Positions 43,383-56,552 of a DNA stretch of 64,000 bases are shown in pieces. How positions within the stretch are numbered: the first letter of the stretch is position 1; each line of letters begins with the position of its first letter. Below the pieces are notes generated by a model. That model did no database searches. It had not been told where the DNA came from and saw only the letters and a list, made by a program, of their open reading frames with translations. Made by a program: the position numbers and the translations under genes. Origin of the DNA: a virus (taxonomy: Duplodnaviria; Caudoviricetes); the IMG/VR virus record IMGVR_UViG_2862799924_000001, positions 7,607-71,606 of that record. The stretch is one strand, 5' to 3'.

Positions 43383-45578
43383 TCAGACCGCTGCCGAAGC
43401 CGGGTCTTCGTCGTCCTCGTCGACGTCTCTGGCGTCGGGAAGATCGGCGTAGCGCACGCCCTTCGCTCCCCCGCAGCAGTCCCGGATGGTGATCTGCCGG
43501 GTCGGAATCTTGTGCACCTTGAGGGCGGCCGACAGCGCCGTGGAACGGACGGCCTGGACGTCGCGTACTTCGTCCGGGCTCATCTCTGCGACAGCCTTCT
43601 CTGTCTCCATCCACGAGCCGTACAGCTCCGGCAGATACAGCGCGAGCGACTCGACCAGCCGGTGGCTGTGCACCGCGTCGGCGCCGTCCGGCCAGATGGC
43701 GTGGACGTGGTCGGCGATGGTCGTGCGGTCGGGCTTCTCGATCTGCTGGCCAGCGGCCTCACCGGACAGCGTTCCGGCCGCGGTCCGCAGGGCAAGTCCG
43801 CGCCGGCCCACATCGCGCACGTCCGCCTGCGGGATGAAGTACGCCCGCACGATCTTCGCGTTGGTCGCGGAGCGGGCGAGCCACCCGGTCCCGGAGTCCT
43901 TCGGGTCGTCTCCTTCGGCGGGCTCGAAGATGTTCGCGCGGATCCCGCGCTTGTACATGCCGGTGCCCAGCACCAGGTCATTCGCGGTGTGCCCGGTGAT
44001 CGCGAGACAGAAGCGCAAGATCGCGTTGTCACTGATCTTCTTGGGGATCGACTTCGCGTCGGGCCGCTGCGTGGTCAGCACCAGGATGATGCCGTACGCC
44101 CGCGCCTTGCGGATCAGCCGGGCGAAGACCGCCTCTGCCTCCTTGCCGTACACGGGGTGCTCGAAGAGCGTGTGCACCTCGTCGAAGATCGCGAGGATGG
44201 GGTGCAGGCGCAGGTGCGGGTACTTGTCCGAGAGCTTGCGCGTCACCTTGCGCCCGGTGGGTACATCCGCGACGGGGAGACCGGCGACGATCTTCTTGCG
44301 CCGCTTCATCTCCTTCTCCAGGGCGTAGCCCCCGTCCAGCGCGGCCTCGCAGTGCTCGTCGTCGTCGCCCTGCACGTAGCGGTGACAGATGGGCCTCAGG
44401 CCCTCCAGGTCACCCGAGCCCTTCAGCTCGAACAGCCACTCCTCGCAGGTGGGATCCAGCGCCCCGGCACATGCGATCGTGCACACCGCGCTGGTCTTCC
44501 CGGAGCCCATCACGCCGCCGATGAGCATGTTGGTCGCGATGACGGCGAGCGGCTCACGGTCGCCCTTGGGGGTGACGCCGAAGGGGATCACCCCGTACAT
44601 GTCCGCCGTGCCCCCGGCGAGCAGCGGCCACGGCCGCAGAATCGTGCGCGGGTCCTTCTTCGCGACCCAGATGTTCGCGCGCCCCGGATGCTCGGAGCCC
44701 ACCGACGGCCAGACGCACTGCAACGGGCGCCGCATCGCGGCGGCCAGCTCCTTGCGCTTGTCGAGCAGCAGTTCCGCGAGCGTCGCGCCGGGCAGGTCCA
44801 CCTGCGCCAGCCATCCGGGGCCGTCGACCGCGATCGGCGCGACGAACCGCGGCGTGCCCTTGACGCCGATCGCCTCGATCGCCTGAGCCAGCTCCTCGGA
44901 GTCCAGCGGACGCTGGAGGTGGATGGACAGGTAGCGGGTGACGATCGGCTTGTCCCCGCGCCGGCCGTACACACCGGCCAGAGCCAGGGCCGCGGTCACC
45001 GCGCCCCCGCACCACAGCGGCACGGCCAGCGCGGCCACGAACAGGATCAGCAACACTGTGCCCGCAAGGGCCAGGGACGCGATGCGCCGCGGCCTCACCC
45101 TGCGCGAGTGCTCACGCGACAGGGCCAGCCACGCCTCGATGTCGGCTGTCGCCGCGGCCCTGGCCGTCACCGGCCGCGCCTCGGTGTCCGCGACCCACTT
45201 GCCCCACCGGACGATGAGCCGCCCGGTGCCGCGCGGGGCGCACAGCAGCAGCCGGATCAGGTAGACCGGCAGGCGCAGCAGGTGGAACGCCCCGAAGTGG
45301 ACGCAGTAGGCCAGCGTCCAGCGCACGTTGACGGCGAACTCCCGCAGGCTGCGCAGCCAGGACGGCAGCACCGCGGGCGCGTCCGTGAGGTCGGCGCGGC
45401 GCTGCTCCGCCCACGTACCCGTGTCGGCTGCGACTTGCGGGGTGTCGACGGGCATTGGCGGCGCATCAGGATCGAGCGCGTACATCTCCCGCTTGTCGTC
45501 CGCTCCGACCTTCTTGAACGTGACCTTCTGCTCGGTCCCGTTGATGACCGTCCCCGTGGCGCCGTCGGGGATGCTCAC
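43383..45578 (-). CDS. traB: FtsK/SpoIIIE-family TraB-like DNA translocase
   Basis: N-terminal TM helices; Walker A GGVMGSGKT; IFDEVH; IRKARAYGIILVLTTQRPD; ANDLVLG. Confidence 0.85.
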   Translation of the reverse strand: MSIPDGATGTVINGTEQKVTFKKVGADDKREMYALDPDAPPMPVDTPQVAADTGTWAEQRRADLTDAPAVLPSWLRSLREFAVNVRWTLAYCVHFGAFHLLRLPVYLIRLLLCAPRGTGRLIVRWGKWVADTEARPVTARAAATADIEAWLALSREHSRRVRPRRIASLALAGTVLLILFVAALAVPLWCGGAVTAALALAGVYGRRGDKPIVTRYLSIHLQRPLDSEELAQAIEAIGVKGTPRFVAPIAVDGPGWLAQVDLPGATLAELLLDKRKELAAAMRRPLQCVWPSVGSEHPGRANIWVAKKDPRTILRPWPLLAGGTADMYGVIPFGVTPKGDREPLAVIATNMLIGGVMGSGKTSAVCTIACAGALDPTCEEWLFELKGSGDLEGLRPICHRYVQGDDDEHCEAALDGGYALEKEMKRRKKIVAGLPVADVPTGRKVTRKLSDKYPHLRLHPILAIFDEVHTLFEHPVYGKEAEAVFARLIRKARAYGIILVLTTQRPDAKSIPKKISDNAILRFCLAITGHTANDLVLGTGMYKRGIRANIFEPAEGDDPKDSGTGWLARSATNAKIVRAYFIPQADVRDVGRRGLALRTAAGTLSGEAAGQQIEKPDRTTIADHVHAIWPDGADAVHSHRLVESLALYLPELYGSWMETEKAVAEMSPDEVRDVQAVRSTALSAALKVHKIPTRQITIRDCCGGAKGVRYADLPDARDVDEDDEDPASAAV

Positions 45579-46384
45579 GGCGTACCCCGCAGCTTCTCCA
45601 CATCCCGGGCGTCGAAGAGGTGCCCGCCCCCGGGATCGGCTGCAACGGGAGTCAGAGTGCCGCGGTGCTTGTAGGACCGGACCGTGTTCGGGCTGACGTT
45701 CAGCCGCTCCGCGACCTCACTGGTCGTCAGCATCTCGCCACGCCCCTGCGGCGGCACCGCCACGGGCGTTGCGCCCGCCGCCACGAGCGGCAGCAGCCGC
45801 ACCCCCGCAGGAACCGCGTCGGCCCACCGGAAGACGGGGCGCAGGGGCGCTGCGCAGATGGCCGCAACGGGGGTGCGTTGCACCGCAACGCCGGGCGTTG
45901 CGACGCGTCGCGCGATGGCTTCGTGGACTTGGCGCATGAGCGCGCCGAAGGCGAGCAGCGCGGCGACGGGAGGCACGGCGGCGACGATGTAGTCCATGGG
46001 TTCGGCTCCGGCGCCCACCCCCGCGACGTTCAAGGCGATGGAGCCGAGCGATCCGGCGACGGCGAGCGCGATGGCCCACCAGTCGATGCGCCGCATGAGC
46101 GAGGCACGCAGGATGAGGACTTCGCCGATGACGATGAAGAGATCGACAGTGCCGGGCCACGCCCACGCCCTGGCGGGCGAGTGCTGAAGCCCCTGAGCCG
46201 CGGCGACATCGTGAAGGTGCTCGTACGAAAGCCAGAAGGCGCCGCCGGTGAGGGCGACGGTGGCGACGGCCGCGATGACGGCGAGCAGGGTCAGGACGCG
46301 CGAGGCGTCAGAAGAGGAAACGGGAAACCTGTCAGAACTCTTGATCACCGCAGGGGGTGCGGCGCTACCTTTCTTGCGGGCCAT
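45575..46384 (-). CDS. DUF2637 (SpdA/SpdB-like) membrane protein with C-terminal HTH
   Basis: AFWLSYEHLHDVA, AWAWPGTVDLFI, AAVPPVAAL; HTH LTTSEVAERLNVSPNTVRSY. Confidence 0.8.
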   Translation of the reverse strand: MARKKGSAAPPAVIKSSDRFPVSSSDASRVLTLLAVIAAVATVALTGGAFWLSYEHLHDVAAAQGLQHSPARAWAWPGTVDLFIVIGEVLILRASLMRRIDWWAIALAVAGSLGSIALNVAGVGAGAEPMDYIVAAVPPVAALLAFGALMRQVHEAIARRVATPGVAVQRTPVAAICAAPLRPVFRWADAVPAGVRLLPLVAAGATPVAVPPQGRGEMLTTSEVAERLNVSPNTVRSYKHRGTLTPVAADPGGGHLFDARDVEKLRGTP

Positions 46385-46532: not shown

Positions 46533-47543
46533 TCAGTCGCGGCGTGGGGCGGGTGGGATGCTCTCCTCCTTCGGGGCGAGCTTCGCGAACCGCTCGATCG
46601 CCATGTCGTGGTACGCGGCGTTCAGATCGATGCCGATGTACTGCCTGCCGAGTTGAAGCGCCGCGAGCCCAGTCGTCCCTGCCCCGCTGCACGGGTCGAG
46701 GACGATGCCGCCCGGCGTGCAGCCCGCCTTGATGCAGCGCAGCGGCAGGTCAACCGGGAAGGTGGCGAAGTGCGCCTGCGGGAACGGGCGGGTGCTGATC
46801 GACCAGACGTCGCCCGGATTGCGGCCCGTCGCGTCGACCTTGTCAACGCTCCACCTGCCGGTCGCTGTATGGGGCTTGTTTGCTGTGGTGTGCGCCCTGC
46901 GCGAGGGTGCCCTGTCTCCGCTGTACTGCTCGCGTATCGCGTCCAGGTTGAAGAAGTACTTTGCCTTCTTGGTGAACAGGAACAGTGACTCGCGCCGGTT
47001 CGACAGGCGGTCGCGCACGGAGGACGGCATGGCATTCGGTTTGTGCCAGATGATCTCGTTGCGGAGGATCCAGCCGTCGTCTTGCAGCGCGAACGCGACG
47101 CGCCAGGGGATGCCGAGCAGATTCTCGGTCGGCATCCCCGTGACGGTGCGCCTGGCGGCCGCCGCTGTCGCCCCGTCCCTGCGGAAGGATGGTCTGCCTC
47201 CCTCCTGCTTACGCTGCCCGCTGTTCCCCGTTCCGTGCCACCGCTCGTTGAAATCCTTATTGGGCGCCCCCATCCCTGAGCTGTAGCTGTCTCCCAGGTT
47301 CAGCCACAGCGTCCCGTCGTCGGCGAGCACGCGCCGCGCCTCAGCAAACAGCGCACGCATCGTCTCGACATACGCAGCGGGCGTCGGCTCCAGCCCGTAC
47401 TGGCCGGGCGCGCCGTAGTCGCGGAGCCCGTAGTACGGGGGGCTGGTGACGATGCAGTTCACCGACCGCTCGGGGGCGGCCGCCAGTACTTCGAGCGCGT
47501 CGCCGACCAGCAGCAGGGCGCCGTCACCGTGGTGGTGAATCAC
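46533..47543 (-). CDS. N4-C/N6-A DNA methyltransferase (beta class)
   Basis: VTSPPYYGLRDY; HFATFP; VLDPCSGAGTTG. Confidence 0.93.
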   Translation of the reverse strand: MIHHHGDGALLLVGDALEVLAAAPERSVNCIVTSPPYYGLRDYGAPGQYGLEPTPAAYVETMRALFAEARRVLADDGTLWLNLGDSYSSGMGAPNKDFNERWHGTGNSGQRKQEGGRPSFRRDGATAAAARRTVTGMPTENLLGIPWRVAFALQDDGWILRNEIIWHKPNAMPSSVRDRLSNRRESLFLFTKKAKYFFNLDAIREQYSGDRAPSRRAHTTANKPHTATGRWSVDKVDATGRNPGDVWSISTRPFPQAHFATFPVDLPLRCIKAGCTPGGIVLDPCSGAGTTGLAALQLGRQYIGIDLNAAYHDMAIERFAKLAPKEESIPPAPRRD

Positions 47544-49479: not shown

Positions 49480-50319
49480 CTAGAAGGGCGGCGGCTCCTG
49501 CGCCTGGAAGGTCTTCGCGATCATCGTTGCCTGCTCGGCCGTCATCCCTTCCGGGTTGACGCCCTTGCTCTGCAGGAACGCGACCAGCTGCGGGTCAAGG
49601 GCGGCAGACCCAGAGGCAGGGACGGTCTGGGCAGGGGCTGCCTGCGCTGAACCGGCAGGGTTCCCCCACTGAGGGGCCGGGCTACCCGGTGCAGTCGCTG
49701 CCGGGGCACCCGCACCAGTCGGTGCCTGGGCAGGCGTCGCCGTGGCAGCAGGTGTGCCCCATTGCCCCTGCGGAGGGCCCGCCGGTGCCGCTGCTCCGGG
49801 TGTGCCCTGCCACGGGTCGTACGGCAGCTGCTGCGAGACGTGTTGAGGCTGCTGCCCCCACGCCTGCTGCTGGGCAGGCGCCGCCTGCGCGGTCGGCTGG
49901 GTGAAGGCGTTGCGCGGGTGGGCGTTGATGTACTGCGTCGCCATCTGGACGTCGGCGTCGGAGTACTCGGCCAGGTAGAAGGCGCCGGACTTCTGTCCCT
50001 GCGCCGCTGTCTGCGCGAGCCTGCCCAGCACCATGCCGCCGCCGCAGTGCTTCTTGATCTGCGGGACCAGCGCCTTGCCGCCGACGCGTGCGTTGCTCAG
50101 GACGGTCGGCTGTCCCGTCTCCGGGTTGACCAGGTCGATGATCGCCACGTCGGCTTCGACCGCGTCGTACGGCTCAGGCTGGCCGTTCTGCCCGGTGCCC
50201 ATGTGCTGGCTGACGCTGTCCGGGTAGAACAGGAACAGCTTGCCGACCCACTCGGGATGGTCGCGCGGCGTGAACCGGTCGCCGCGGTCAGGCTGCGCGA
50301 AGGGATTAGGGGTTGTCAC
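49480..50319 (-). CDS. putative ssDNA-binding protein
   Basis: Beta N-domain, long Q/P/A-rich tail ending EPPPF; replication module. Confidence 0.6.
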   Translation of the reverse strand: MTTPNPFAQPDRGDRFTPRDHPEWVGKLFLFYPDSVSQHMGTGQNGQPEPYDAVEADVAIIDLVNPETGQPTVLSNARVGGKALVPQIKKHCGGGMVLGRLAQTAAQGQKSGAFYLAEYSDADVQMATQYINAHPRNAFTQPTAQAAPAQQQAWGQQPQHVSQQLPYDPWQGTPGAAAPAGPPQGQWGTPAATATPAQAPTGAGAPAATAPGSPAPQWGNPAGSAQAAPAQTVPASGSAALDPQLVAFLQSKGVNPEGMTAEQATMIAKTFQAQEPPPF

Positions 50320-50459
50320 GAAGATCTCTCTTTCCTGTTACGGGAGTTCGGTTGTCTGCGCGCCGCAGCCGGCGCATATCCAGCGCAGCGGGCCGCGCGC
50401 CGTCTCGGCCCACCAGTGCAGCTGCGGGAAGAGGCGGTGCACCAGTACGCGGAGCCACC

Positions 50460-50663
50460 TCACGCGGCCTGCTTTTCTTGCACGGCATCGAATGCGGCCC
50501 GCACCTCCGAGTCGCGGTAGCGGCGGTGCCCGCCGAGCGTGCGGACCGAAGAGAGCTTCCCGGCCTGCGCCCAGCGGGACACCGTCTTGACGTCCACGCG
50601 GAAGATCTCAGCCACCTCACCCGGGGTGAGCAGCTTCTCGTAATCGAGTTCCATATCTGTCAC
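50460..50663 (-). CDS. bldC: BldC-family MerR-like HTH regulator
   Basis: LLTPGEVAEIFRVDVKTVSRWAQAGKLSSVRTLGGHRRYRDSEVRA. Confidence 0.88.
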   Translation of the reverse strand: MTDMELDYEKLLTPGEVAEIFRVDVKTVSRWAQAGKLSSVRTLGGHRRYRDSEVRAAFDAVQEKQAA

Positions 50664-50666
50664 CTC

Positions 50667-50852
50667 CTATTGGGGCAGCACCTCGAACATGGGGCGCGAG
50701 AATCCGCCGGAATCCTGTCCGGGCGTGATGTCATCTTCGAGTTCCGGGATGTACTTGTTCGGCACCGAATAGCTGATCTCGCAGCGTTCCAGGTTCCCAG
50801 GGCTTTCGGGGTCGTCCTCCCACCACTGCACGGCGGGATTACTGTCGACCAT
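50667..50852 (-). CDS. small hypothetical protein
   Basis: AAGGAGAAGG RBS; MVDSNPAVQWWEDD... Confidence 0.5.
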   Translation of the reverse strand: MVDSNPAVQWWEDDPESPGNLERCEISYSVPNKYIPELEDDITPGQDSGGFSRPMFEVLPQ

Positions 50853-50869
50853 TACGCCGCCTTCTCCTT

Positions 50870-51043
50870 GCCTGCCAAGCCGCGGCTTACCGCGACGCGC
50901 CGGAACTTGCCCTGACATAACCCGCCTGCCTTGCCAGACCGCGCCGCAACCGGACGCGCATTGACATGCCCGGCCTCGCCTCGCCTGCCACGCCGTGCCA
51001 AGCCTGGCCTTGCCACTCCAATCCCGGACCCGCCACGCCTGCC
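50870..51043 (-). ncRNA. 3-unit (NN-GGY)n array delimited by GGCAGGC, putative guide RNA array
   Basis: GCCTGCC at 50870, 50924, 50983, 51037; inserts of 47, 52, 47 nt in exact 5-nt register. Confidence 0.8.
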
Positions 51044-51048
51044 GTGCG

Positions 51049-51471
51049 CTACGCCGCTTCGTCGTTCAGGTCTTCGCGGATCATCTCTGTGAATTCCTCG
51101 AAGTCCTGGTAGCGGCGCTTAAGCGTCTGCCATTCACGCGCCATGTCGGCCAGTACGAGGCGGCGCGTGAAGTCATCGGATACGACCGTTTCGACGGGCT
51201 CGTATACGTGGCCGTGCTCGCGGCGCACCGCGTGGTAGGCGCGCACCGATTTGGCGGGACCGCTCTCGTCCGCCTCGCGGTACACCACCTTCACGGAGCG
51301 GATCAGTTCGTGCGCCTGCTGCTGCCGGTACTTCTCACCGGCCACGCCGTCGTTCCATTCGAAGCGGGAATGCAGCGGATGAGATGCGTCGCGCGCCTCA
51401 TCCACGATCAGTGACGGCGTGAGCTGCCCCCGCTGGTCGTAGATGGATTGCAGCTGGTCGCGCAGGCTCAC
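51049..51471 (-). CDS. partner protein of the RAMP-like gene
   Basis: GTG overlaps the upstream stop; GQLTPSLIVDEARDASHPLHSRFEWND..AGEKYR..QAHELIRSV. Confidence 0.8.
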   Translation of the reverse strand: MSLRDQLQSIYDQRGQLTPSLIVDEARDASHPLHSRFEWNDGVAGEKYRQQQAHELIRSVKVVYREADESGPAKSVRAYHAVRREHGHVYEPVETVVSDDFTRRLVLADMAREWQTLKRRYQDFEEFTEMIREDLNDEAA

Positions 51472-52076
51472 GAGATGACCTCGACTTCCCGCGACTGGTC
51501 GATGTCGTACGTGCCGAAGTCGCCGCCCTTCTCGGGGCGCCACTCCCCCACGCCGACGCCCATTCCGCCCGCCGCGATCAGGGAGATCACGGATTCGCGG
51601 GTCAGCATCGACTTGACGTAGACGACGTCCAGTGCCGTGGTCCACTCCGGGAACTCGGGGCGGTAGCGCAGGTCGTGGCCGCCGCGCCCCACCGTCACGG
51701 TGTCTTCGCGCATGTGCGGGGTGCCGTCGATGCGGGTCATGCCGCGGCCGTCGTCGCCGACCTCGCCACGGAAGAACATGAACTGCCGCAACGCGGTCAT
51801 CGTCACGCCCTGGTAGAACCGGGCGCCGCCGATCGTCGCCGCCTTGAACGCGATAACCGGGAAGCCGTAGCCGCCGTCCTTCAGGTGGTAGAAGGCGGCC
51901 TCGTACTCGGCTTCCGGGTCCTTGCTCTGCTTCGGAGACTTGCGTCCCTGCATGTTGTCGAGCATCTGCCGCTTCGCCTTTTCACTGAAGCGGTGCACGA
52001 TCAGCGGCGACGTTCCCACAATGGGGATACGTATGGTTTCCGCGTCGATCTTTTCGAGCTGAATTTCAGCGGTCAT
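51468..52076 (-). CDS. standalone RAMP/Cas7-like protein (Vipr-like)
   Basis: IPIVGTSPLIVH first strand; GFPVIAFKAA; RYRPEFPEW; G-rich loop GGMGVGVGEWRPEKGGDFGTY. Confidence 0.75.
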   Translation of the reverse strand: MTAEIQLEKIDAETIRIPIVGTSPLIVHRFSEKAKRQMLDNMQGRKSPKQSKDPEAEYEAAFYHLKDGGYGFPVIAFKAATIGGARFYQGVTMTALRQFMFFRGEVGDDGRGMTRIDGTPHMREDTVTVGRGGHDLRYRPEFPEWTTALDVVYVKSMLTRESVISLIAAGGMGVGVGEWRPEKGGDFGTYDIDQSREVEVIS

Positions 52077-52101
52077 CTTCTCTTCCTTCACGGGTAGTTG
52101 T

Positions 52102-52735
52102 TTGCCTTGCCATGCCTGCCATGCCTTACCAGACCTTGCCGGGACGGGACTTGCCAGAGCGTGCCTGCCTTGCCGTAACCGGCCACGTCGGGACGTAACT
52201 TGCCCCGCCATGCCTGCCGCGCCGAACCGCAACGATCCGTGCCATGCCTAAACTCGCCTAGCCTGCCGCGCCTTTCCCTGCCTCGCCCGAACTCGCCGAA
52301 CCATGCCTGCCACGCCTCGCCAGAACTTGCCGGACCGGGACTTGCCAGAGCGCGCCTGCCTCGCCAAAGCCATTTCCCGCCCCGCCTTGCCTGCCATGCC
52401 CCAACTCACTGCGCCGTGCCGAAACCCGCCCAGCCTGCCGCGCCAAAACGCACGTCGCCCAGACGCGCCGCAACTCGCCTCGCCTGCCATGCCCTGCCGG
52501 GCCATTCCGGTCCATGCCCGGCCACGCCTGCCCTGCCGAGTCTTGCCACGCATTACCGAGCCGTGCCATTTCACGCCGCGACCTGACTGCCGAACAGCAC
52601 CCCGCCATGACGGGCCAATCCGCGCCCTGCCTGCCGTGCCGCGCCGAACCGAGCCTGGACAACCCTTGCCTGGCCCCGACTTGCCCAACCGCGCCTGCCT
52701 CGCCAAAACTGAACTCACCGCAACCAACTTGGGCC
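52102..52735 (-). ncRNA. 12-unit (NN-GGY)n array delimited by GGCAGGC, putative guide RNA array
   Basis: 13 delimiters from 52114 to 52693; inserts of 37, 42, 52 or 57 nt (one irregular 28 nt) in 5-nt register. Confidence 0.85.
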
Positions 52736-52747
52736 ACGTCACTTCAT

Positions 52748-54541
52748 CTACCGCCCCGGACACCCCCGCTCCATGTTCGGATCACCGGGCGCATACCAGT
52801 CGCAGAATTTGCAGTCGCTCGGATCGACGGGGAATTGGCGTGCCACTTCAAGCGGCGTGCGCTCTGTCGGGCCTGCTCCGATGTAGTCGTGGATACCGTT
52901 GTCGATCCTGTCCACCCGCGCCAGCGCATCGCGCGCTATCTGCGGGTCGTAGGGTTCGACGACCGCATACAGATCGTCCAGCGAAGACGACTCCATGGGC
53001 CACGACAGCAGCGCCACGAAGTCGACGCGCTCGCCTTGCAACCTCGCGCCGAATCCGTACACGTGCAGCTGTGTTCGCTGCGTCGGCGTCATGCCTTCCG
53101 TGCGCAGCTTGTTCTGTGACCACTTCCCCTGGATCTTGTGGTCATCGACCATGAACAGGACGCGGTCAAGGAGATCCGTCGTGCCGCGCGGTACGAGACC
53201 GCTGGGGAACTTCAGCGGCACCTCGACAGCGAAGCGTCCTGTGTTGCCGCTCGCCCACGTGAACACCTCGGCCAGCTCCTTGTGGATGGCCGTGCCCTTG
53301 AAGGAAGCCCAGCCGTCGCCGCCCGGATTGACCGGCGGTATCCGCAGCAGCGACATGGCAAGGCGCCTGTCGCAGGGGCTGCCGATCTCGGACGGCCCGA
53401 GCGTCGTCTGCGCCGATCGGTTGTCGTTCGTCTTCCGGTTGCCGAACGAGTAGAAGACCTCCCGCATCCTGGCGACCAGCCGTTCAGCCATCATCGTCAT
53501 CGGCACGGCAGGCTCTGCCGCGGGCGTCTTGGCCGGCTGCGAGAACGGCGAACCCGGCTGGGCGAAGAGCGGCTCAGCCGGTGCCGCAGCCGCAGGTTCC
53601 GTCCGGCTTGAGGCAGTCGGGGTGAGAGCCGCATCCGGCGGCGGCACAGGGGCCGGTGACCTTTCCGGGGCATCCGCAGGTGCCGGGGCTGCACTGTCCG
53701 CAGGCGTGGCGTCCGGGGTGGGGGCATCCTTCCGGGAAAGCCTCGTCACCGCCGCGACGCCCAGCTCTCTCTTGCTGGACGCTGCGGTCTTCCCCGGGCA
53801 CTGCGCCTGCCGCCTCTCGTACATCCACAGGTGCGGCCCGTGATCCTTCGTGATGTGGCACGGCTGCTCCTGCTGGCTCGATGCCCCGGCACCAGCACCA
53901 TCCGCAGAGCCCGCACCAGTTGGGTTCGTCGCAGGTGTTGAGGGGCTTGAAGGCGGCGCCTCGGCTGCGTCCGGCCGCGGCGGCGAGTCCTGCTGCGTAG
54001 TCGTCGACTCCGGGCAGGGCGGCGGCAGCTCCCTGTTCTCGATCGCTCTTGCGGCTGCCTCTGCCCATTTGCTGATCATCTCCTCGGACTCGTTGGGGGC
54101 CGCACTGTCGGCAGTCGGCCGGACATCCGTCGCACCGTCCAGGCGGGCAGTAGGCGCAGTCTGGTTCTGACCCGATGTAGGGGACTCCTTCACCGTCGGG
54201 CACGCGCTCTCTCCGCTCTCGTACGGCTTGCCGGACATGGGGCACTTCACGCGCTTCGACGTGGGTGTCTCGCCCTCGCGCATGTGATCGGTGAAGTACC
54301 CTGTCGCGCCGTCCAGTACGGGCGAGCCGGGGCAGGCGGGGCACGGCGCATAGTCACGGCCGATGACGGGCCGCTCGTCGTCGGGCCCCGTCTCGGGGCC
54401 GCGCCGGATCAGCCAGGCGGGGATGTCGCGCTTCGAGCGCGAGCACTCCGTCCCCTTCTCCCGGTCGTGCTTGCGGTAGTGGTTGTCCACCGTCGCGACC
54501 ACGTTCTTGTGGCAGGAGATGCAGTGATACCTATCGGCCAC
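52748..54541 (-). CDS. Cas4/RecB-like PD-(D/E)xK exonuclease with long N-terminal Zn and low-complexity region
   Basis: LGPSEIGSPCDRRL, GTAIH, GTTDL, DDHK, QLHVYG, CKFC...C. Confidence 0.85.
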   Translation of the reverse strand: MADRYHCISCHKNVVATVDNHYRKHDREKGTECSRSKRDIPAWLIRRGPETGPDDERPVIGRDYAPCPACPGSPVLDGATGYFTDHMREGETPTSKRVKCPMSGKPYESGESACPTVKESPTSGQNQTAPTARLDGATDVRPTADSAAPNESEEMISKWAEAAARAIENRELPPPCPESTTTQQDSPPRPDAAEAPPSSPSTPATNPTGAGSADGAGAGASSQQEQPCHITKDHGPHLWMYERRQAQCPGKTAASSKRELGVAAVTRLSRKDAPTPDATPADSAAPAPADAPERSPAPVPPPDAALTPTASSRTEPAAAAPAEPLFAQPGSPFSQPAKTPAAEPAVPMTMMAERLVARMREVFYSFGNRKTNDNRSAQTTLGPSEIGSPCDRRLAMSLLRIPPVNPGGDGWASFKGTAIHKELAEVFTWASGNTGRFAVEVPLKFPSGLVPRGTTDLLDRVLFMVDDHKIQGKWSQNKLRTEGMTPTQRTQLHVYGFGARLQGERVDFVALLSWPMESSSLDDLYAVVEPYDPQIARDALARVDRIDNGIHDYIGAGPTERTPLEVARQFPVDPSDCKFCDWYAPGDPNMERGCPGR

Positions 54542-55199: not shown

Positions 55200-56552
55200 T
55201 CAGGCCGCCATGGATTCCAGTGCGCAGCCGACCAGGTCGCGGGCCATGTTCACGGGCACCGCCTGTCCGGCGAGGCGGACGCGGTCGCGTTTGCTGAGGC
55301 GGCCGGCCAGCCAGTCGTAGCTGTCGGGGAAGTCCATGAACCGCGCGTACTCCGGGGGTGTGATCATGCGGAAGCCGCAGTCGTTGATGTCCGGCTGCGG
55401 GTTCGGCATCAGCGCCGCCCGGTCCACCGTGGTCACCGTCATGAACGGCTCGTCGGTGGTCCGCACCCGGGTCCGCCCGTAGTACGGGATGACCAGACCG
55501 TGGTGGTTGCCGCTCGCGCACACCGTGCTCAGGGGCTCCGAGACCCGCCGGGTCTTGCTGCTGCCGCCGCGCAGTTCCGCGATGAACGGCGGCACGACCA
55601 GCCCGGTCTCGTTGCGGCCGGTGACCGTGCGCATGGGCACTTCCACGGGGAACGGCCGCTTGCCGTCACGTCCTTCGACGGGCACCAGGGCCGGACCGTA
55701 CTCCCGCAGCCCGTGCTCGATACGGCTCATGGTCTTCGCCGCGAGCGGGGTCTTGCGCTCGCCGATCACCGGCGTCGGCAGTGACCAGTCGATGACGTCG
55801 CCCGCCGGGCGCACGTGCGGCTCCACCGGCGCCGCGCAGGTCCGGCACACGAAGTCGTACTGGCGCCGGTACTTGCCTGCGTCGCGGCCGTTCTTCCACG
55901 TCTGCCGCCCGGTCGTCGGACCGCAGGCGGCGCACAGTGCGGCGGGTGCGATCCACGCGTCGGTGTCCGGGCACGGCGTGCCCTTGGGGTGCATGAGGCA
56001 GAACCAGCGGTCGCGCCACTGGTGCGCCGGATCCCCGAGGCGCCCCGCGTGGGCCGCGTTGAGGAAGACCTCGTGCAGGCATTTCCCGCCGTCCGCCATG
56101 GCGATCTTCCAGGCGCGGAAGCCGACCCAGGTGCGGACTTCGACGACGTTCTCGACGATGATGAAGCGGTACTTGTGGATCTCGTCGAACCGCTGGACGT
56201 CCCACATCGTCGACCGCGCGCGCACCGCGCTCTCGTCCACGGCCATGAAGCGCGCACCCTGGGCGATGCTGTGAGCCGTGCACGACGGGGAGAACCACGC
56301 GCAGTCGGTGCGCGGGTAGCGCCGCGGGTCGACCTGCGAGATGTCCGCGCAGTCGTGATCCGTGTCCGGGTTGTTGGCCTGGTGCACGTCGACCGACGGG
56401 CGCCAGTGGTTGATCGCGACCCGGGTCTTCTGTCCGGGGATCAGGTGGATGCCGCGGGTCGAGCCGCCGCCCCCGCAGAAGCCGTCCAGCCATTCGACGG
56501 GCCCGAGTCTGACGAGCAGCTCGAAGAGCGCCATCCGTTGTGCAAGGTTCAC
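55200..56552 (-). CDS. C5-cytosine DNA methyltransferase
   Basis: DGFCGGGGS (I), FSPSCTAHS (IV), ENVVE (VI), QWRDR (VIII), AGQAVP (X). Confidence 0.92.
   Translation of the reverse strand: MNLAQRMALFELLVRLGPVEWLDGFCGGGGSTRGIHLIPGQKTRVAINHWRPSVDVHQANNPDTDHDCADISQVDPRRYPRTDCAWFSPSCTAHSIAQGARFMAVDESAVRARSTMWDVQRFDEIHKYRFIIVENVVEVRTWVGFRAWKIAMADGGKCLHEVFLNAAHAGRLGDPAHQWRDRWFCLMHPKGTPCPDTDAWIAPAALCAACGPTTGRQTWKNGRDAGKYRRQYDFVCRTCAAPVEPHVRPAGDVIDWSLPTPVIGERKTPLAAKTMSRIEHGLREYGPALVPVEGRDGKRPFPVEVPMRTVTGRNETGLVVPPFIAELRGGSSKTRRVSEPLSTVCASGNHHGLVIPYYGRTRVRTTDEPFMTVTTVDRAALMPNPQPDINDCGFRMITPPEYARFMDFPDSYDWLAGRLSKRDRVRLAGQAVPVNMARDLVGCALESMAA

What the first reader, a model, noticed from the sequence alone, without database searches (positions are those of the whole stretch)
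50870..51043. Second array downstream of the gene pair with the same grammar but different content
Four GCCTGCC delimiters enclose three perfect-register units: aa.gc.tt.gc.gc.gg.tt.ct.at.cc; tt.ag.gc.gc.cg.gc.tt.at.cg.tc.tc; ac.gt.aa.tg.tt.ac.aa.cg.cc.ac. None copies a unit of the main array. The same grammar on both sides ties the arrays to the two enclosed genes. The array starts 5 nt after the partner stop and ends at the next gene's RBS, so it is likely co-transcribed.
Basis: seen in the sequence. Interest (0 to 1): 0.78.

Follow-up and report, generated by a model that had tools for sequence, protein, structure and literature searches.

The report
Extra guides of a phage VIPR
This stretch holds three more guide RNAs of a phage gene-silencing system (VIPR, a CRISPR relative described in 2026), and one of them fits a control gene of a rival mobile element, so it is a good new example of a known system rather than a new kind.

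Summary
On the minus strand, 50870-51043 holds three in-register GGY/NN units of 10, 11 and 10 dinucleotides, split by one-base slips (GGC-A-GGC). The enclosed genes are a Vipr (profile E 3.8e-12 to SUSP1 Vipr; Csm3/Cas7-like fold) and a weakly winged-helix-like Vap. This is a VIPR locus with a 'staggered' array; that layout and guides on both sides of the genes are both published. The 'second' array is in fact at the usual place: 29 of 37 related loci have an array downstream of vap, only 3 upstream of vipr.

Under the published 1-nt-skip code, unit D3 matches 20/20, wobble-aligned, an XRE-ImmA/IrrE gene in an integrative element. D2 has a weaker 21/22 hit in a phage Cas4-like nuclease. D1 has no target found. 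The cassette is absent from four syntenic relative phages. Its first upstream guide matches 24/24 the neighbouring exonuclease allele of a cassette-free relative, but its own allele only 16/24: a homing-like layout. Expression and processing were not testable. The scan noted a staggered VIPR array before on other DNA (e1-5785305).

The parts
50870..51043 (-). Downstream staggered vrRNA array: three complete guide units between four GGC-A-GGC slips
50986..51039 (-). Guide D1, 10 NN; no credible target found
50927..50985 (-). Guide D2, 11 NN; 21/22 sense, wobble-aligned match in a Cas4-like PD-(D/E)XK nuclease gene of virus record G717 (tentative)
50873..50926 (-). Guide D3, 10 NN; 20/20 antisense, wobble-aligned match in an XRE-HTH/ImmA-IrrE (Peptidase_M78) gene of an integrative element in G471
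51049..51471 (-). vap accessory gene, 140 aa, phrog_15946; model has a winged-helix-like N-terminal part (weak, Z about 5-6) and a long C-terminal helix
51468..52076 (-). vipr gene, 202 aa RAMP-fold protein, phrog_4652
52104..52724 (-). Upstream staggered array, 11 units of 8-12 NN plus short or broken units
52632..52695 (-). Guide U1, 12 NN; 24/24 match to the exonuclease allele of cassette-free relative G716
52791..52825 (+). The phage's own version of the U1 site in the exonuclease 3' end; only 16/24
52748..54541 (-). Flanking Cas4-like exonuclease gene (phrog_1674); its last ~50 aa differ from closest relative G024 (26/52) although the core is 175/185 identical
50860..50869 (-). RBS of the next gene; cassette boundary (G024 aligns up to window 50867)
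50667..50852 (-). Next gene (61 aa, no family); in G024 it follows the exonuclease stop directly

Best explanation
The segment is the downstream part of the guide-RNA array of a phage VIPR system of the staggered-array kind, in a temperate actinophage (host probably Streptomyces; inferred). Shown here: non-coding GGY/NN units, a Vipr homologue with the GGY-reading residues, a vap gene, and gapped matches that obey the 1-nt-skip rule. Taken from the published SUSP1 work: one Vipr protomer binds each 5-nt repeat, hides the triplet and presents NN, and the complex binds dsDNA and represses transcription. Inferred: the early operon is transcribed through both arrays and cut at the GGC-A slips into ~54-59 nt tail-less guides, so D1-D3 add three specificities to the same Vipr/Vap. 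D3 most likely silences XRE-ImmA/IrrE switch genes of resident integrative or conjugative elements or prophages by reading the codons of a conserved protease motif. D2 may hit a rival actinophage's Cas4-like nuclease. The split into two arrays reflects flexible array placement in this clade, not a second function.
For: Vipr: phmmer E 3.1e-5 and profile E 3.8e-12 to SUSP1 Vipr, the only PDB hit under E 0.1. Model pLDDT 87; top Foldseek rows are CRISPR Csm/Cmr/type VII complex chains. SUSP1 H17, R138, W178 and R179 align to H28, R139, W179 and R180, invariant in 30 homologues; D177 aligns to E178. Architecture in 37 relatives: downstream only 25, between genes only 7, all three places 3, between plus downstream 1, none 1 (contig ends). 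Code test: 221 guides against 16 records gave 11 strict guide-record hits with 1-nt skip and 0 with skip 0 or 2; 2 of the 11 were preselected, the other 9 come from 5 guides. U1 24/24 in G716. D3: 5 of 401 genomes at <=1 mismatch, all five in the same motif; 4 were scanned and all are Peptidase_M78 (L209's site and flanks are near-identical to L208's). One is perfect, inside a ~24 kb island with serine integrase, XRE, Prim-Pol and FtsK/SpoIIIE between comEA- and comEC-like genes. Homologues of that gene occur in 12 of 201 genomes, all 17-20/20. No self-target for D1-D3 (14/20, 16/22, 15/20).
Against: No RNA evidence. D1 has no target: 2 of 401 genomes at 2 mismatches, against 2 in the control, and only low-GC viral hits. 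The D3 excess over the reversed-pattern control is modest (5 against 2). My independence model expected 0.0026 perfect and 0.17 near-perfect hits, but the control's 2 suggest it runs about tenfold low. Chance convergence occurs: 31 of 63 D3 core hits in viral contigs fell in one protein cluster (tape measure for the member scanned), and a 20/20 hit lies in a 32% GC contig. For D2, 2 of the 3 metagenome hits at 21/22 are in unrelated sequence, and 401 genus genomes gave 1 hit at 2 mismatches. 13 of the 37 triplets in the tract are not GGY (GTC 5, GGA 3, GTT 3, TGC 1, GCC 1), and SUSP1 Vipr is reported to exclude purines at Y3.
Confidence: 0.9

Rival explanations
1. The cassette is selfish as well as competitive. 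Edge guides aim at the cassette-free allele of the adjacent gene in cognate phages, while the carrier holds a swapped, resistant gene end. Silencing or blocking the rival allele in mixed infection favours recombinants that take up the cassette (RNA-guided marker exclusion without a nuclease).
For: The cassette is absent from G024, G027, G028 and G716. U1 matches the exonuclease 3' end 24/24 in G716, 20/24 in G027, 18/24 in G028, 17/24 in G024 and 16/24 in the phage itself; the own site lies ~40-80 bp from the cassette edge. The own exonuclease tail is 26/52 identical to G024 while the core is 175/185. The last guide of L001 matches a site just past its own array 18/24 and a site ~180 bp past the array in G002 22/24. 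Imperfect 1-nt-skip matches within 3 kb of the own vipr: 12 of 221 guides, against 1 of 221 for each other skip and 5 of 663 shuffles. Near versus far in 8 records: 5 per 0.62 Mb against 6 per 3.33 Mb.
Against: The evidence rests on the upstream array, not D1-D3, none of which matches flanking genes of the relatives (best 14/20, 17/22, 15/20). No nuclease fold was seen in Vap (inconclusive). G024, the closest empty-site relative, is itself only 17/24. The exonuclease tail is variable among all five phages. Counts are small. Guides against related phages will hit homologous genes anyway.
Confidence: 0.2
2. The downstream array is a relic. It is the original array, now unexpressed or obsolete, and only the upstream one works.
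For: D1 has no target and D2's is tentative. It is short, and it sits at the position usual for the clade.
Against: All three units keep perfect register, whereas the upstream array has a broken unit near 52388-52361. D3 has a perfect host-matched hit. No terminator-like site lies before it.
Confidence: 0.07
3. The units are not cut apart. The long RNA is loaded whole and the GGC-A slips act only as filament stops, or the repeats are DNA sites for Vipr/Vap autoregulation.
For: No tail, ribozyme or stable fold: no Rfam hit, folding z -0.9. No processing enzyme was identified.
Against: Published staggered arrays are described as individual processed vrRNAs (fig. S18 legend). The unit-wise perfect gapped matches (U1, D3) show that the information is read per unit, as guides.
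Confidence: 0.08

Closest known systems
VIPR systems with staggered vrRNA arrays (Yoon et al., 10.64898/2026.04.26.720920; whole main text and figure legends read, figures and supplements not seen)
   Same: Phage-borne vipr plus vap; GGY/NN repeats within the 9-16 range; units abutting with a one-base offset; 1-nt-skip, wobble-aligned targets on either strand; no self-target; WH-like Vap among the described kinds.
   Different: More degenerate triplets (GTC, GTT, GGA). Arrays upstream, between or downstream of the genes within one clade. The text I read reports target searches for SUSP1, P. fulva and types III and V and does not say which type has staggered arrays, so the type number is not assigned here.
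Type II VIPR of coliphage SUSP1 (same paper; 10.64898/2026.04.26.720927, part 1 of 6 plus passages; 10.64898/2026.10.15.759431, part 1 of 8 plus passages)
   Same: Guides on both sides of the gene pair (one upstream, three downstream); targets in mobile elements, at codons of conserved residues; some guides of relatives aim at rival vipr genes.
   Different: SUSP1 vrRNAs are ~100 nt with a ~40 nt pseudoknot tail; these are ~54-59 nt without a tail. Sequence similarity of Vipr is confined mostly to the C-terminal third.
Free-standing homing endonucleases and marker exclusion in T-even phages (PMC2988022, passages)
   Same: An element absent from relatives whose specificity falls on the rival allele of a nearby gene, with flanking sequence that seems to travel along (guide U1).
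   Different: RNA-guided; no nuclease identified; preferential inheritance not shown; does not involve D1-D3.
Class 1 CRISPR-Cas
   Same: RAMP fold (Csm3/Cas7-like) acting on an array of guides.
   Different: No repeat-spacer structure, gapped code, two-gene locus.

Membership tests
VIPR | Vipr: RAMP homologue (RRM core, thumb, G-loop) outside a CRISPR locus | tested here: met
   E 3.1e-5 and 3.8e-12 to SUSP1 Vipr; fold matches to CRISPR effector chains; H28, R139, W179, R180 invariant
VIPR | Minimal vipr + vap locus in a phage or provirus | tested here: met
   Overlapping two-gene pair in a 71.6 kb virus record with terminase, portal, capsid and tail genes; vap found by tblastn in 39 of 42 loci
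VIPR | vrRNA of 9-16 alternating GGY/NN repeats or a related consensus | tested here: met
   10, 11 and 10 NN; 24 of 37 triplets GGY, the rest mostly GTY or GGA
VIPR | 1-nt-skip target code, skip on the wobble base | tested here: met
   11 strict hits against 0 and 0 for skips 0 and 2 (2 preselected); U1 24/24; D3 20/20; D1 none
VIPR | No self-target at 80% or more | tested here: met
   D1-D3 70-75% at best; three short upstream units reach 81-83%, as the other skips do
VIPR | vrRNAs expressed, bound by Vipr, and repressing transcription | not testable with these tools
   Needs RNA-seq, pull-down and reporter assays
VIPR, staggered array | [quoted passage not shown] | tested here: met
   GGC-A slips with no spacer or tail between units; matched to the fig. 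S18 legend only, figure not seen
VIPR type II (SUSP1-like vrRNA) | Invariant ~40 nt structured 3' tail after each repeat tract | tested here: not met
   Units abut directly; the last runs into the RBS; folding z -0.9
VIPR ribozyme-interspersed arrays | Hammerhead ribozymes between vrRNAs | tested here: not met
   No sequence between units; no Rfam match in 50300-53000
VIPR type assignment (I-VII) | Vipr phylogeny and vap class | not tested
   Reference sets are in figures and supplements not seen; Vap is WH-like only at Z 5-6
CRISPR-Cas | Constant direct repeats with contiguous spacers | tested here: not met
   5-nt periodic units, no repeat-spacer alternation
TIGR arrays | 18-nt period (10.64898/2026.10.21.760802, passages) | tested here: not met
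   Period is 5
Homing elements (intronless homing) | Target in the element-free allele, resistant own allele | tested here: met
   For upstream guide U1 only: 24/24 against 16/24
Homing elements (intronless homing) | Nuclease that cuts the rival allele; biased inheritance | tested here: inconclusive
   No nuclease fold among the Vap matches; inheritance cannot be tested here

The most novel reading that the evidence does not exclude
Staggered-array VIPR cassettes are mobile units that spread among cognate phages by RNA-guided, nuclease-free marker exclusion. An edge guide silences the cassette-free allele of the neighbouring gene while the carrier bears a swapped resistant gene end, and other guides such as D3 switch off ImmA/IrrE regulators of resident conjugative elements. 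This would give VIPR a homing-like mode of spread and a new target class.
Probability: 0.2. Interest if true: 0.7.

Novelty: new member of a known kind. Interest (0 to 1): 0.36.

Why it matters
The array itself is an expected VIPR part. Its value is as a worked example of the little-studied staggered, tail-less kind. It supplies named guide-target pairs (U1 with a cognate phage exonuclease, D3 with an XRE-ImmA/IrrE gene of an integrative element) and computational support that the 1-nt-skip code holds for ~55 nt guides. How such arrays are cut and how new guides are written is not answered in the papers I read. Cultured Mycobacterium and Gordonia phages carry the same vipr-vap pair and arrays, so both questions can be tested at the bench. 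If the homing-like reading holds, it would explain the patchy spread of VIPR among near-identical phages.

Tried and rejected
Protein-coding reading: ORFs cross the segment in several frames, but there is no codon-position bias, and G024 starts the next gene at the ATG matching 50852. Rejected.

Chance or low-complexity repeat: rejected. Duplication of upstream units: rejected. Structured RNA or ribozyme: no Rfam hit, z -0.9. Self-targeting: none for D1-D3.

D1 targets: two viral scans, 21 and 24 loci, all at GC 0.54 or lower; best 19/20 in a ribonucleotide reductase small-subunit gene of 34-43% GC contigs, treated as chance. 401 genus genomes gave the control level.

D3 viral core scan: 63 loci, mostly tape-measure clusters, set aside as chance or wrong host. 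L056 (19/20, GC 0.66, Peptidase_M78) fits the main reading.

D2: 0 of 23 VIPR-bearing records at <=3 mismatches. D3: 0 of 2 records. D1-D3 against G024-G028, G001, G716, Dagobah and six VIPR phages: nothing above background.

No ImmA-like gene found in the own record or 15 others with one 130-aa query.

Near-cassette self matches in three cultured phages (Donkeykong, Pipp, Ecliptus): none notable. A search for empty-site relatives of Donkeykong was not followed up.

Sequencing runs: no RNA holder listed. One soil DNA run with a small share, laid at 80% likeness, gave only relatives' pieces.

Literature: 'VIPR + vrRNA' listed 4 papers; 'Vipr/staggered/vrRNAs' added none on VIPR; 'VIPR + Streptomyces + phage + RAMP' gave 0. 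In 10.64898/2026.10.15.759431, 'homing', 'stagger', 'ImmA', 'conjugative' and 'Streptomyces' have 0 occurrences. Supplements of the VIPR preprints (tables S2-S3, data S3-S4) were not seen; they may list this locus, its type or such targets.

Rows dropped before the count of 37: L031, L032, L035 and L040 (duplicates) and L038 (27-aa match).

Full report
Observation. The four GCCTGCC motifs lie at 50870, 50924, 50983 and 51037. I call the units D1 (51039-50986), D2 (50985-50927) and D3 (50926-50873). The register score is 31, against at most 7.5 in 5000 Markov samples and 4.5 in 1468 other tiles, and no unit resembles an upstream unit beyond background. The segment lacks codon-position bias, has no Rfam match and is not unusually stable as RNA (z -0.9). 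It begins 5 nt after the vap stop and runs into the RBS of the gene at 50852. No terminator- or promoter-like site was found in 50300-53200, a weak test in a 68% GC phage.

The genes. The record is a 71.6 kb virus with head, tail, lysis, FtsK/SpoIIIE and primase genes. Its closest relatives by terminase include four proviruses. The host is probably Streptomyces. This is inferred from the best cultured match of the exonuclease, Streptomyces phage Dagobah, and from the vWA gene; no tool named it. The 202-aa protein at 52076-51468 hits SUSP1 Vipr in the PDB (E 3.1e-5 single, 3.8e-12 as a 30-sequence profile). It folds with pLDDT 87 and matches chains of CRISPR Csm, Cmr and type VII complexes. The residues that read GGY in SUSP1 (H17, R138, D177, W178, R179; 10.64898/2026.04.26.720927) align to H28, R139, E178, W179 and R180, four of them invariant. 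The 140-aa partner folds as a winged-helix-like domain plus a long helix; Z of 5-6 is weak.

Known system. Yoon et al. (10.64898/2026.04.26.720920; main text and legends read in full) define VIPR as vipr plus vap with GGY/NN vrRNAs read by a 1-nt-skip code. The figures and supplements were not seen, so the type number is open.

Which array is 'second'. Of 42 related loci I dropped four duplicates and one fragment. Among the 37 left, arrays lie downstream only in 25, between the genes only in 7, in all three places in 3, between and downstream in 1, and nowhere in 1, where the contig ends. Downstream is thus the usual place (29 of 37) and upstream the exception (3 of 37; the upstream flank is missing in one locus). 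Among three cultured phages, Donkeykong has the array upstream only, and Pipp and Ecliptus between the genes. No relative shares a unit with D1-D3 (best 11/20, 13/18, 13/20).

Does the code hold for these tail-less units? 221 guides of 9 or more NN were scanned against 16 phage records. There were 11 strict hits with a 1-nt skip and none with skips 0 or 2. Two hits were preselected; the other nine come from five guides, two of which aim at other phages' vipr genes. The first upstream guide U1 showed partial matches at one homologous site in three relatives (20, 18 and 17 of 24). A scan with its first nine dinucleotides then returned 7 loci, one of them 24/24, antisense and wobble-aligned, in the homologous exonuclease of G716, a syntenic phage without vipr.

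Targets of the downstream units. D3 read antisense spells a motif that I recalled as ImmA/IrrE-like and then tested. In 401 genomes of the presumed host genus, 5 matched at one mismatch or fewer, all in that motif, against 2 for the reversed control. The four proteins scanned are Peptidase_M78. The perfect match lies in an XRE-HTH/IrrE fusion gene within a ~24 kb lower-GC island between comEA- and comEC-like genes. The island carries a serine integrase, an XRE repressor, Prim-Pol and FtsK/SpoIIIE, and no virion gene among the 29 ORFs scanned, which fits an actinomycete integrative conjugative element (label from my own knowledge). Homologues occur in 12 of 201 genomes and all score 17-20/20, so D3 would cover a family. 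ImmA is the protease that releases ICEBs1 from repression (PMC5812530, passages); silencing such a gene should keep a rival element shut, but for a repressor-protease fusion the direction of the effect is uncertain. Against this: the independence model (0.0026 perfect expected) runs low as judged by the control; 31 of 63 viral core hits converged on one unrelated cluster; and a 20/20 hit lies in a 32% GC contig. I put D3-ImmA at about 0.7. D2 matches 21/22, sense and in frame, a PD-(D/E)XK Cas4-like nuclease in G717, whose cultured homologues are all Gordonia, Rhodococcus or Tsukamurella phages (117 of 117). Two unrelated 21/22 hits among 9 metagenome loci show that chance is not negligible, so about 0.35. 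D1 has no target. None of the three targets its own genome.

The cassette. G024 (87-90% DNA identity upstream of the site), G027, G028 and G716 lack vipr, vap and both arrays. In G024 the exonuclease stop is followed at once by the RBS of the next gene. At the other edge, U1 aims at the last codons of the adjacent exonuclease in relatives, while the phage's own version is 16/24 and its tail is only 26/52 identical to G024 against 175/185 in the core. L001's last guide shows a like pattern (18/24 beside its own array, 22/24 in G002). Imperfect near-cassette matches are enriched: 12 of 221, against 1 of 221 per other skip and 5 of 663 shuffles. This resembles intronless homing and marker exclusion (PMC2988022, passages), and I did not find it in the VIPR texts searched. 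It rests on small counts, on the upstream array, and on a system with no identified nuclease. Ordinary targeting of related phages explains much of it.

Mechanism. Shown: anatomy, homology, code-consistent matches, cassette boundaries. From published work on SUSP1: filament assembly, gapped R-loop, repression. Inferred: co-transcription, cutting at GGC-A, activity of D1-D3, and the biological opponents.

Verdict. A real feature, correctly read; a new member of a known kind. Interest 0.36, carried by the guide-target pairs and the homing-like hint rather than by the array itself.

Noticed in passing
window 52632-52695 and 52791-52825; G716 C1:20566-20600: The first upstream guide matches the adjacent exonuclease's 3' end perfectly in a cassette-free relative but only 16/24 in the own genome; the own gene tail looks swapped relative to G024.
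   Followed up: yes
window units starting at 52356 and 52165 (minus): Two upstream units are near-copies (15/18 NN bases). Both partly match (15/18, 14/18) a site in G001 whose reading frame looks like a tyrosine integrase (label recalled, not scanned). Possibly re-tuned guides against a rival integrase.
   Followed up: partly
L005:3609 and L039:3618: The first unit after vipr in these loci matches vipr genes of other phages (18-19/20 in five records; 18/20 in one) better than the own copy (L005: 16/20).
   Followed up: partly
L004, L005, L039: Arrays on all three sides of the genes (upstream, between, downstream), as if vipr and vap were embedded in one array; suggests units or genes move by recombination at the slips.
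   Followed up: partly
window 43383-46348: FtsK/SpoIIIE gene and a membrane-plus-HTH gene inside a tailed-phage genome, a conjugation-like module that may explain competition with integrative elements.
   Followed up: no
L219:4117-4386 (Gordonia phage Pipp gp43): An annotated hypothetical CDS coincides with the vrRNA array, so it is likely a mis-annotation.
   Followed up: partly
L218:2995-3342 (Mycobacterium phage Donkeykong): Upstream-only array of almost pure GGC triplets, with an internally repeated dinucleotide series in one unit.
   Followed up: no
window 52361-52388: One upstream unit is out of register (an extra base near 52372), apparently a broken guide.
   Followed up: no
G471 C1:6547600-6572300: In the island that holds the D3 site, upstream unit 52484 reaches 16/18 in the Prim-Pol gene; not above chance for 14 guides.
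   Followed up: partly
window 50844-51617, run X1: One 779-nt soil contig appears to span the next gene's start, a diverged array of similar length, vap and vipr: a hint of a relative with the same layout and other guides (80% likeness, weak).
   Followed up: no
window 46533-47543 and 55200-56552: Two DNA methyltransferase genes flank the region.
   Followed up: no
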